Assembly (NCBI GenBank): GCA_964035545.1
Contig: OZ037769.1
Span: 8,289,929 to 8,353,928, forward strand
DNA: 64,000 bases
Direction of reading: 5' to 3'
Source of the DNA: Bugula neritina
Lineage: Eukaryota; Animalia; Bryozoa
This document shows, piece by piece, positions 24,355-24,858 of the stretch; positions within the stretch are counted from its first letter, which is position 1; each line of letters begins with the position of its first letter. The notes below the pieces were generated by a model, which made no database searches, had not been told where the DNA came from, and saw only the letters and a list, made by a program, of their open reading frames with translations. Both the position numbers and the translations under genes were made by a program.

Positions 24355-24858
24355 TATATATATATATATATATATATATATATATATATATATATATATA
24401 TATATATATATATATATATATATATATATATATATATATATATATATATATATATATATATATATATATATATATATATATTTCAATATGTCGACAGCAG
24501 CTGTTTCGGGATTTGTCCCCTCATCAGCACAGAACAGAGTACCATGGCCCACACCTTCGCAATAGTAAAACTATAAGTTTTACTAAAGCATATTTAAAAG
24601 GTGTGTAAATCCAAGCCAGAGTGCTCAAGTGACTCTAGGGGTCACCTAGGAGTCACGAACATTGCTAAACGCTAGCAGCTTGAATTTGTGACCATGGTGA
24701 GAGTGCTCAATCATTTAATGTCATTGCTGAGCATTAAATGAGAGCATAATATCTCAATCTGTGTAATATATATATATATATATATATATATATATATATA
24801 TATATATATATATATATATATATATATATATATATATATATATATATATATATATATA
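24355..24858. repeat. (TA)n tract split by a retrozyme-like monomer
   Basis: TA runs at 24355-24480 and ~24765-24858. Confidence 0.95.
24481..24763 (-). mobile_element. Dispersed monomer of the 272-bp hammerhead (retrozyme-like) repeat
   Basis: Diverged copy of the 52745-53558 unit. Hammerhead core CTGATGA-GGGG-acaaa-TCCC-GAAA-cagctgctg-TC on the minus strand; stem I partly mutated. Confidence 0.88.

What the first reader, a model, noticed from the sequence alone, without database searches (positions are those of the whole stretch)
24481..24763. Dispersed monomer whose 5' boundary is exactly the hammerhead cleavage site
Seen: on the minus strand this copy begins CACAGATTGAG at 24763, precisely the 5' end produced by cleavage at GUC/CACAGA. 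It runs one full unit and ends about 10-12 nt past the next cleavage site, almost the same 3' end point as the array at 52745. Both copies sit in (TA)n, and the element reads ataata at that junction. Inference: a footprint of reverse transcription of a self-cleaved RNA, primed at an AT microhomology in TA microsatellites.
Basis: partly seen in the sequence, partly recalled or inferred. Interest (0 to 1): 0.72.

Follow-up and report, generated by a model that had tools for sequence, protein, structure and literature searches.

The report
Hammerhead retrozyme copy in TA microsatellite
This is one copy of a 272-base repeat carrying a predicted self-cutting RNA motif, likely pasted into TA repeats by a Penelope-type reverse transcriptase; copies share a preferred 3' end just past the predicted cut, but starting exactly at the cut is this copy's peculiarity and was not seen as the family's rule.

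Summary
Coordinates are right: the copy starts exactly at the predicted type I hammerhead cut (+1), runs 271 nt, then a 12-15 nt tail into (TA)n. It is a non-LTR retrozyme-like element. Supported: the top 3' loose-end cluster is +15 with (TA)n in two deep runs (13 and 16 contigs), and the nearby trimer sits in a (TA)n that is empty in a paralogous duplicate. Not supported: no 5' end at +1 among the 30 loose-end rows shown (of 447), the trimer starts at +16-19, and a related family has 0 of 19 5' ends at +1. Initiation at +12-15 means the reverse transcriptase must cross an intact junction, so the usual template is likely circular or uncut RNA. This copy's tail has 3 of 12 changes that break its 3' ribozyme, fitting run-off from a once-cut RNA (about 0.6) versus chance. 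New lead: a doubled TTGAGC(A/T)CTCT helix motif shared by four otherwise dissimilar retrozyme-like families. The scan noted a similar TA-inserted retrozyme in another genome (e1-9924577).

The parts
24493..24763 (-). One full retrozyme-like unit, +1 (predicted cut) to the next GTC; 271 nt; predicted highly paired circle (z -7.5)
24493..24533 (-). Type I hammerhead: TCTGTG / CTGATGA / GGGACAAATCCC-type stem II / GAAA / CAG-CTG-CTG stem III / TC; its stem I 3' arm (in the tail) is broken in this copy
   Evidence: motif definition from PMC4209133; no Rfam hit
24478..24492 (-). 3' tail +1..+12 (GACATATTGAAA, 3 of 12 changed versus own 5' copy) plus TAT microhomology +13..+15 running into (TA)n
24354..24481 (.). 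(TA)64 on the 3' side
24764..24859 (.). (TA)47 on the 5' side, with a phase shift (extra T/TA) at the junction and no microhomology to the GTC that precedes +1 in tandem units
24700..24710 (-). TTGAGCACTCT motif 1 (+54); GAGC pairs with GCTC at +19..22, just 3' of the preferred 3' end
24618..24628 (-). TTGAGCACTCT motif 2 (+136); pairs with +103..107, with a compensatory change versus the array
52743..53558 (-). Trimeric array, 3 x 272 bp, 5' end +16..19, 3' end +12..15, units identical except 1 base; predicted cuts 53302/1, 53030/29, 52758/7
11749..11826 (.). (TA)39 at the paralogous position of the array in a ~91% identical segmental duplicate: empty site

Best explanation
It is a dispersed copy of a 272-nt type I hammerhead repeat (non-LTR retrozyme-like) that was likely inserted into an existing (TA)n tract by target-primed reverse transcription using a Penelope-like element's enzyme in trans, which likely starts 12-15 nt downstream of the predicted cut. 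Shown: unit, hammerhead motif, termini, (TA)n flanks, empty paralogous site for the sister array, preferred 3' end at +15. Inferred: the enzyme starts at the foot of a conserved helix at a TAT microhomology, crosses an intact (ligated or uncut) hammerhead junction at once, and stops at variable points (5' truncation, or whole laps as in the trimer). For this copy alone, the stop at +1 most likely (about 0.6) reflects run-off at a self-cleaved 5' end of a once-cut RNA whose downstream hammerhead was defective; that is a minority outcome.
For: 3' loose ends at 53287 (+15) with (TA)n consensus: 13 contigs in X2 and 16 in X6, the largest rows shown, and 1 contig in X11. Empty (TA)39 at the paralogous site of the array. 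Array is exactly 3 units with 1 difference in 816 bp. Related 241/243-nt family: of 40 independent loci, 20 end at +8 and 19 about +12, 1 unclear; 5' ends spread +4 to +208 in 19 informative loci. A Hydra-clade PLE (L022/P0001: RWK, DKT, CxCX5C) has the same ORF-hammerhead-tail-(TA)n order; Hydra, Neptune and Naiad PLEs prefer (TA)n (PMC8557442). Two minimal PLE-type hammerheads and a PLE-like ORF relic lie in this window. For the run-off step: blunt junction with an extra T/TA; 0 of 7 changed base pairs broken between monomer and array and 0 of 150 random mutants fold as well, so the body shows little decay, while the tail has 3 of 12 changes (P 0.0015 at 2% divergence, 0.047 at 7%), none of them a family variant at 3% or more.
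Against: No partner PLE was found for this family; no genome was available. No 5' end at +1 in 16 of 378 and 14 of 69 loose-end rows shown or in 19 loci of the related family (upper 95% bound about 15%). 3' ends are preferred, not fixed: +10 (6 contigs), +7 (6), -2 (5) also occur. The (TA)n next to the related family was required by the search pattern, so only its position is informative. The same TA tracts also hold a tRNA-derived SINE and a MITE-like element, so (TA)n is not PLE-specific here. In vitro, PLE initiation was at non-homologous sites and hammerhead cleavage was dispensable (PMC11167929). No sibling copy with this tail was seen, as a defective source locus would predict. Cleavage and expression are untested.
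Confidence: 0.65

Rival explanations
1. Same insertion route, but the 5' end at +1 is an ordinary random 5' truncation that happens to fall on the cut; the tail changes are later mutations or assembly errors beside a long (TA)n.
For: 5' ends are scattered in this family (+3, +6, +13, +16, +30, -5, -9, -34, -53) and in the related family (uniformity not rejected, KS p 0.09). The scan reads many windows, so 0.7% coincidences are expected.
Against: Exact to the base, no microhomology at the junction although other 5' junctions often show AT overlap, and coincides with a broken downstream ribozyme in the same copy.
Confidence: 0.35
2. One reading: self-cleaved RNA is the normal template, giving a family-wide spike of 5' ends at the cut.
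For: This copy (1 of 2 in the window); one related-family contig (L029) begins at +1 but has no flank; loose-end tables are cut and may under-detect short junction contigs inside (TA)n.
Against: 0 of 19 informative related loci; none in 30 rows shown of 447; array starts at +16..19; initiation at +15 on a cleaved monomer would yield only 15 nt unless the enzyme jumps ends.
Confidence: 0.1
3. DNA-level movement: circles or fragments excised from tandem arrays recombine into (TA)n through the TATTAT microhomology, with no reverse transcription.
For: The array is an exact whole number of units opened at TATTAT; 5' ends at +13 recur (4 contigs in each of X6 and X3).
Against: Polarity: 3' ends cluster while 5' ends scatter; other TAT/ATA sites in the unit (+171, +189, +201) do not appear as clusters in the rows shown; structure-preserving changes show selection on the RNA.
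Confidence: 0.1
4. A LINE (not a PLE) mobilises the RNA and makes the TA tail itself.
For: LINE-type RT remnants are in the window; RTE-type elements can generate microsatellites (reference title seen only).
Against: The TA tract pre-exists at the empty paralogue; internal initiation with a short tail next to a hammerhead is the PLE pattern (PMC11167929, PMC8557442).
Confidence: 0.08

Closest known systems
Metazoan non-LTR retrozymes (Cervera & de la Pena 2020, PMC7229834; Li et al. 2026, bioRxiv 10.64898/2026.07.22.740005)
   Same: Non-coding 150-450 bp repeat with a canonical type I hammerhead, GC under 50%, monomers and tandem multimers, highly self-paired predicted circle, no LTR/PBS/PPT, PLE proposed as partner.
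   Different: In the parts I read, those papers do not tabulate termini or report (TA)n insertion; PMC7761336 states the repeats show no conserved motif pointing to a partner, whereas a doubled motif is shared here by four families. Expression and cleavage are untested here.
Penelope-like elements, Hydra/Neptune/Naiad clades (PMC8557442) and Poseidon PAc (PMC11167929)
   Same: (TA)n targets, 5' truncation, partial or full tandems, internal initiation leaving a tail, two adjacent start sites (as in the related family, +8 and +12).
   Different: No ORF; tail is 8-15 nt past the cut rather than 30-40 bp; AT microhomology at the 3' junction, whereas PAc initiated at non-homologous sites in vitro.
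R2 / L1Tc elements whose 5' end is set by an HDV-like ribozyme (PMC6765202, PMC7761336 passages)
   Same: Idea of a ribozyme-defined 5' end, matching this one copy.
   Different: Here the ribozyme lies at the 3' end of each unit and 5' ends at the cut were not seen as a class.

Membership tests
non-LTR retrozyme | Canonical type I hammerhead in each unit | tested here: met
   Core, stems I-III present in all three array units and in the monomer as a circle; only the free N7 position and stem II loop edge vary commonly. Rfam gave no hit.
non-LTR retrozyme | Short non-coding tandem repeat, 150-450 bp, GC under 50% | tested here: met
   272 bp x 3; no meaningful ORF.
non-LTR retrozyme | [quoted passage not shown] | tested here: met
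   Array has three; the monomer alone does not.
non-LTR retrozyme | Highly self-paired predicted circle | tested here: met
   70-73% paired, z -5.8 to -7.8 against 60 shuffles each.
non-LTR retrozyme | No LTR, PBS or PPT; dispersed and repeated in the genome | tested here: met
   Flanks are (TA)n; 892 and 1,936 distinct contigs laid in two runs, which is no copy number.
non-LTR retrozyme | Transcribed, self-cleaved and circularised in vivo | tested here: inconclusive
   Only contigs were available; runs X11 and X19 are guessed RNA.
non-LTR retrozyme | Catalytic self-cleavage | not testable with these tools
   Li et al. found cleavage in only 1 of 9 tested dimers, so prediction is not proof.
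autonomous Penelope-like element | ORF with RT and GIY-YIG endonuclease | tested here: not met
   No ORF in the unit. It works like a PLE passenger but is not a PLE.
non-autonomous PLE derivative | Sequence shared with the pLTR of a resident PLE | tested here: inconclusive
   No genome; the two PLE-type minimal hammerheads in the window do not match the unit.
non-autonomous PLE derivative | Preferred 3' end near the hammerhead, variable 5' ends, (TA)n target | tested here: met

The most novel reading that the evidence does not exclude
Animal retrozymes carry a conserved, doubled helix-UU-GAGC(A/U)CUCU signal that docks a Penelope-type reverse transcriptase so that it starts a few bases 3' of the hammerhead cut on circular or uncut RNA, sometimes re-priming like telomerase (GTTA-GTTA tails in 13 of 40 related loci against GTTA-GATA inside the unit), and hammerhead cleavage occasionally ends a lap, as in this copy.
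Probability: 0.22. Interest if true: 0.75.

Novelty: new member of a known kind. Interest (0 to 1): 0.42.

Why it matters
How non-LTR retrozymes are copied back into genomes is stated as unresolved (Li et al. 2026; PMC7761336). The termini here give a concrete, testable footprint: a start site just 3' of the cut inside (TA)n, which requires an intact junction and so favours circular or uncut templates, plus a candidate RNA recognition motif for the partner enzyme. The headline idea of the finding, a ribozyme-set 5' end, holds at most for a minority of copies.

Tried and rejected
No whole genome was held, so the full terminus table could not be made. Rfam: no hammerhead hit at gathering or E 10. 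Exact 30-nt hammerhead pattern: 0 hits in metagenome and prokaryote collections. Motif-plus-core pattern in viral and prokaryote collections gave 25 and 120 loci; none of the 145 had a complete hammerhead after the motif, so they are chance. BLAST of the window unit against the 113 parsed loci gave no hit at E 1e-4: the link to the other families is motif-level only. Summed contig depth rises at +14..+16 and is flat across +1 in X3 and X6, but the tool warns depth is no copy number, so it is not used. A 302-nt contig wrapping one unit in X10 fits either a circle or tandem DNA. No clean empty paralogue exists for the monomer. Pfam did not recognise the L022 ORF; it was assigned by the motifs in PMC8557442. 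Taxon of the window was not resolved (no hit). No PLE sequence in the searchable supplement of PMC8557442 carries the hammerhead strings; the motif's 2 hits lie in coding sequence.

Full report
Numbering. +1 is the first base after the predicted hammerhead cut (GTC|CACAGA) on the minus strand; negative numbers run upstream.

1. Observation. The minus strand at 24780-24460 reads (TA)n-TTA|CACAGATTGAGATATTATG ... GAAACAGCTGCTGTC|GACATATTGAAA|TATATA. BLAST in the window finds this copy and three more units at 52748-53563, 92.2-92.6% identical. Homology starts exactly at +1: upstream is TTA, not GTC. The hammerhead is a canonical type I by the definition in PMC4209133 (parts 1-2 of 4 read), although Rfam gave no hit. 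The monomer's tail differs from its own 5' copy at 3 of 12 bases (+1, +5, +11), which breaks stem I of the 3' ribozyme; 9 of 12 matches is still far above chance (P 0.0005), so the tail is element-derived. And the array starts at +16..+19 and ends at +12..+15: exactly three 272-bp units opened at TATTAT, with one difference in 816 bp.

2. Target. A segmental duplicate (9350-11748 and 11865-12802 against 50351-52690 and 53602-54538, about 91.6%) has a plain (TA)39 where the array sits: the array entered an existing microsatellite. No such empty paralogue was found for the monomer. Its TA tracts are a crowded site: a MITE-like element abuts one and a truncated tRNA-derived SINE the other.

3. 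RNA-level selection. Unit circles fold at z -5.8 to -7.8 against 60 shuffles. Between monomer and array, 7 predicted base pairs change and none breaks (3 compensatory, 4 one-sided; 11 further differences unpaired in the joint fold); 0 of 150 random mutants of the array fold as stably as the monomer. 9 of 19 differences by one alignment are common family variants; most others lie near the ends of the reference used. So the monomer's body is a subfamily variant, not a decayed copy, and the three tail changes stand out; none is listed as a variant at 3% or more.

4. No genome was held. Of 24 runs listed, 20 hold the unit, all as contigs. Laying X2, X6, X10, X13 on one permuted unit (892, 1,936, 2 and 5 contigs laid; 16 of 378 loose-end rows shown): the largest rows are 3' ends at +15 with (TA)n flanks, 13 contigs in X2 and 16 in X6 (same study, two samples); other 3' ends at +10 (6), +7 (6), -2 (5). 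5' ends shown: -34 (3, 3), -53 (5), -134 (5), and in X13 -34 and -47 (1 each). A second call on 85 bases around the cut (X6, X3, X11, X19; 14 of 69 rows shown) gave 5' ends at +13 (4 in X6, 4 in X3), +30 (4), +6 (3), -5 (3), +3 (2), -9 (1), +16 (1), plus one row that is an indel variant; X11 had one +15/(TA)n 3' end. None is at +1. Limits: the tables are cut, contigs collapse identical junctions, and short junction contigs inside (TA)n can be missed (X6's +15 row did not reappear), so a minor +1 class is not excluded.

5. Related families. A pattern for any hammerhead core followed within 14-40 nt by (TA)6 gave 114 metagenome loci; 113 parsed and 64 have well-formed hammerheads. The largest family (44 loci, 241/243-nt unit; 4 duplicate loci dropped) ends at +8 in 20 of 40 and about +12 in 19, 1 unclear; the TA flank itself was selected for. 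20 of the 44 had 25 nt or more of 5' flank, 19 independent: 5' ends lie from +4 to +208 and none at +1 (the two lowest are nearer +9 and +11 once microhomology is allowed); three are near unit length. One contig (L029) begins at +1 without flank and was left out. A second family ends TGCAGATTGAGT-(TA)n, close to the window's tail. L022 has an ORF, hammerhead, 32-nt tail and (TA)n; its full protein P0001 carries the RWK, DKT and CxCX5C marks of Hydra PLEs, which nearly all insert in (TA)n (PMC8557442 section 11).

6. A shared motif. TTGAGC(A/T)CTCT occurs twice per unit in the window element, the 241/243-nt family, L003 and L063, though BLAST finds no hit between the window unit and these loci; two chance copies in 270 nt is about 2e-8. 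In the window element, L002, L029 and L003 the first copy is predicted to pair with GCTC at +15..+22, a few bases 3' of the 3' end of insertions. PMC7761336 (passages) says metazoan retrozymes show no conserved motif pointing to a partner. Searches found no paper on this motif or on retrozyme termini in (TA)n; the supplement of PMC7229834 could not be read and that of the 2026 preprint is closed, and either may bear on this.

7. Mechanism. Shown: anatomy, target, polarity of ends. Inferred: a PLE endonuclease nicks (TA)n; the RT starts at +12..+15, where TAT offers 3 nt of pairing; it must then cross the hammerhead junction, so the template is circular or uncut there; it stops early (5' truncation), after whole laps (the trimer; 5' ends at +13), or at a cleaved 5' end. 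This copy fits the last: blunt junction, extra T/TA, dead downstream ribozyme. I put that at about 0.6 against chance truncation. Against it: no sibling tails, no +1 class seen, and in vitro PAc used unprocessed RNA, started at non-homologous sites, and showed no reads ending at the cut (PMC11167929, parts 1-2 of 4). PLEs exist in this genome at least as relics: minimal hammerheads at 23793 (+) and 55024 (-), the second with a 39-nt tail into (TA)n, and an ORF fragment at 55473-55802 matching (E 1.4e-4) a protein with the PLE DKG motif. No partner is identified.

8. Comparison and verdict. It meets every sequence-level criterion of a non-LTR retrozyme (PMC7229834, parts 2-4 of 6 read; bioRxiv 10.64898/2026.07.22.740005, parts 1-3 of 5); cleavage and expression are untested. 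PLE mobilisation and circular templates are already proposed there and in PMC4209133; PMC6765202 was seen as passages. Verdict: new member of a known kind; observation partly confirmed; interpretation partly supported; interest 0.42, carried by the preferred 3' end and the shared motif rather than by the 5' coincidence.

Noticed in passing
window 24700-24710, 24618-24628 and array; L002, L029, L003, L063: Doubled TTGAGC(A/T)CTCT motif, predicted as helix-UU bulge-GAGC helix-CUCU loop, shared by four retrozyme-like families with no other BLAST similarity; candidate protein-binding signal.
   Followed up: partly
L001-L111 (241/243-nt family): 13 of 40 loci have GTTA-GTTA tails while the unit reads GTTA-GATA inside (both seen in contig L002): possible 4-nt re-priming, or a source variant.
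   Followed up: partly
L063/L085, cleavage site: 8-nt duplication spanning the hammerhead junction (one locus seen in two samples); possible RT stutter at the junction.
   Followed up: no
L003: 281-nt retrozyme-like unit containing a tRNA-like A-box/B-box stretch (recognised by eye), recalling hammerhead SINEs of schistosomes.
   Followed up: no
window 54905-55950: Minimal PLE-type hammerhead (55024, -) with a 39-nt tail into (TA)n, an inverted 21-nt copy of the tail end across the TA tract, and a decayed PLE-like ORF on the + strand.
   Followed up: partly
window 23787-23870: Second minimal hammerhead (+), 79% like the one at 55024, 5'-truncated after a (TG)n tract.
   Followed up: partly
window 23873-24374: About 480-bp element with ~45-57 bp terminal inverted repeats between TA runs (MITE-like), abutting the monomer's 3' (TA)64.
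   Followed up: no
window 42726-42945 (-); pieces at 24860-24968 and 18040-18148: tRNA-derived SINE-like element (A- and B-box by eye) inserted in (TA)n; a truncated copy abuts the monomer's 5' (TA)47.
   Followed up: no
window 1503-12802 vs 42979-54538; 25527-27916 vs 34313-36737: Segmental duplications of 82-92% identity, the first including a PAN/apple- and lectin-like multi-exon gene (by eye; no database hit).
   Followed up: partly
window 12802-17627: LTR retrotransposon with 98% identical ~330-bp LTRs and a 1007-aa pol ORF (RT, RNase H, integrase), inserted in one copy of the duplicate only.
   Followed up: partly
window 5120-6502: LINE-type RT ORF fragment (RVT_1, E 3e-36).
   Followed up: no
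window 53055: The one difference in the array (middle unit) weakens hammerhead stem II.
   Followed up: no
window 43773-43843: Weak Rfam tRNA match (32.4 bits), likely a SINE head.
   Followed up: no
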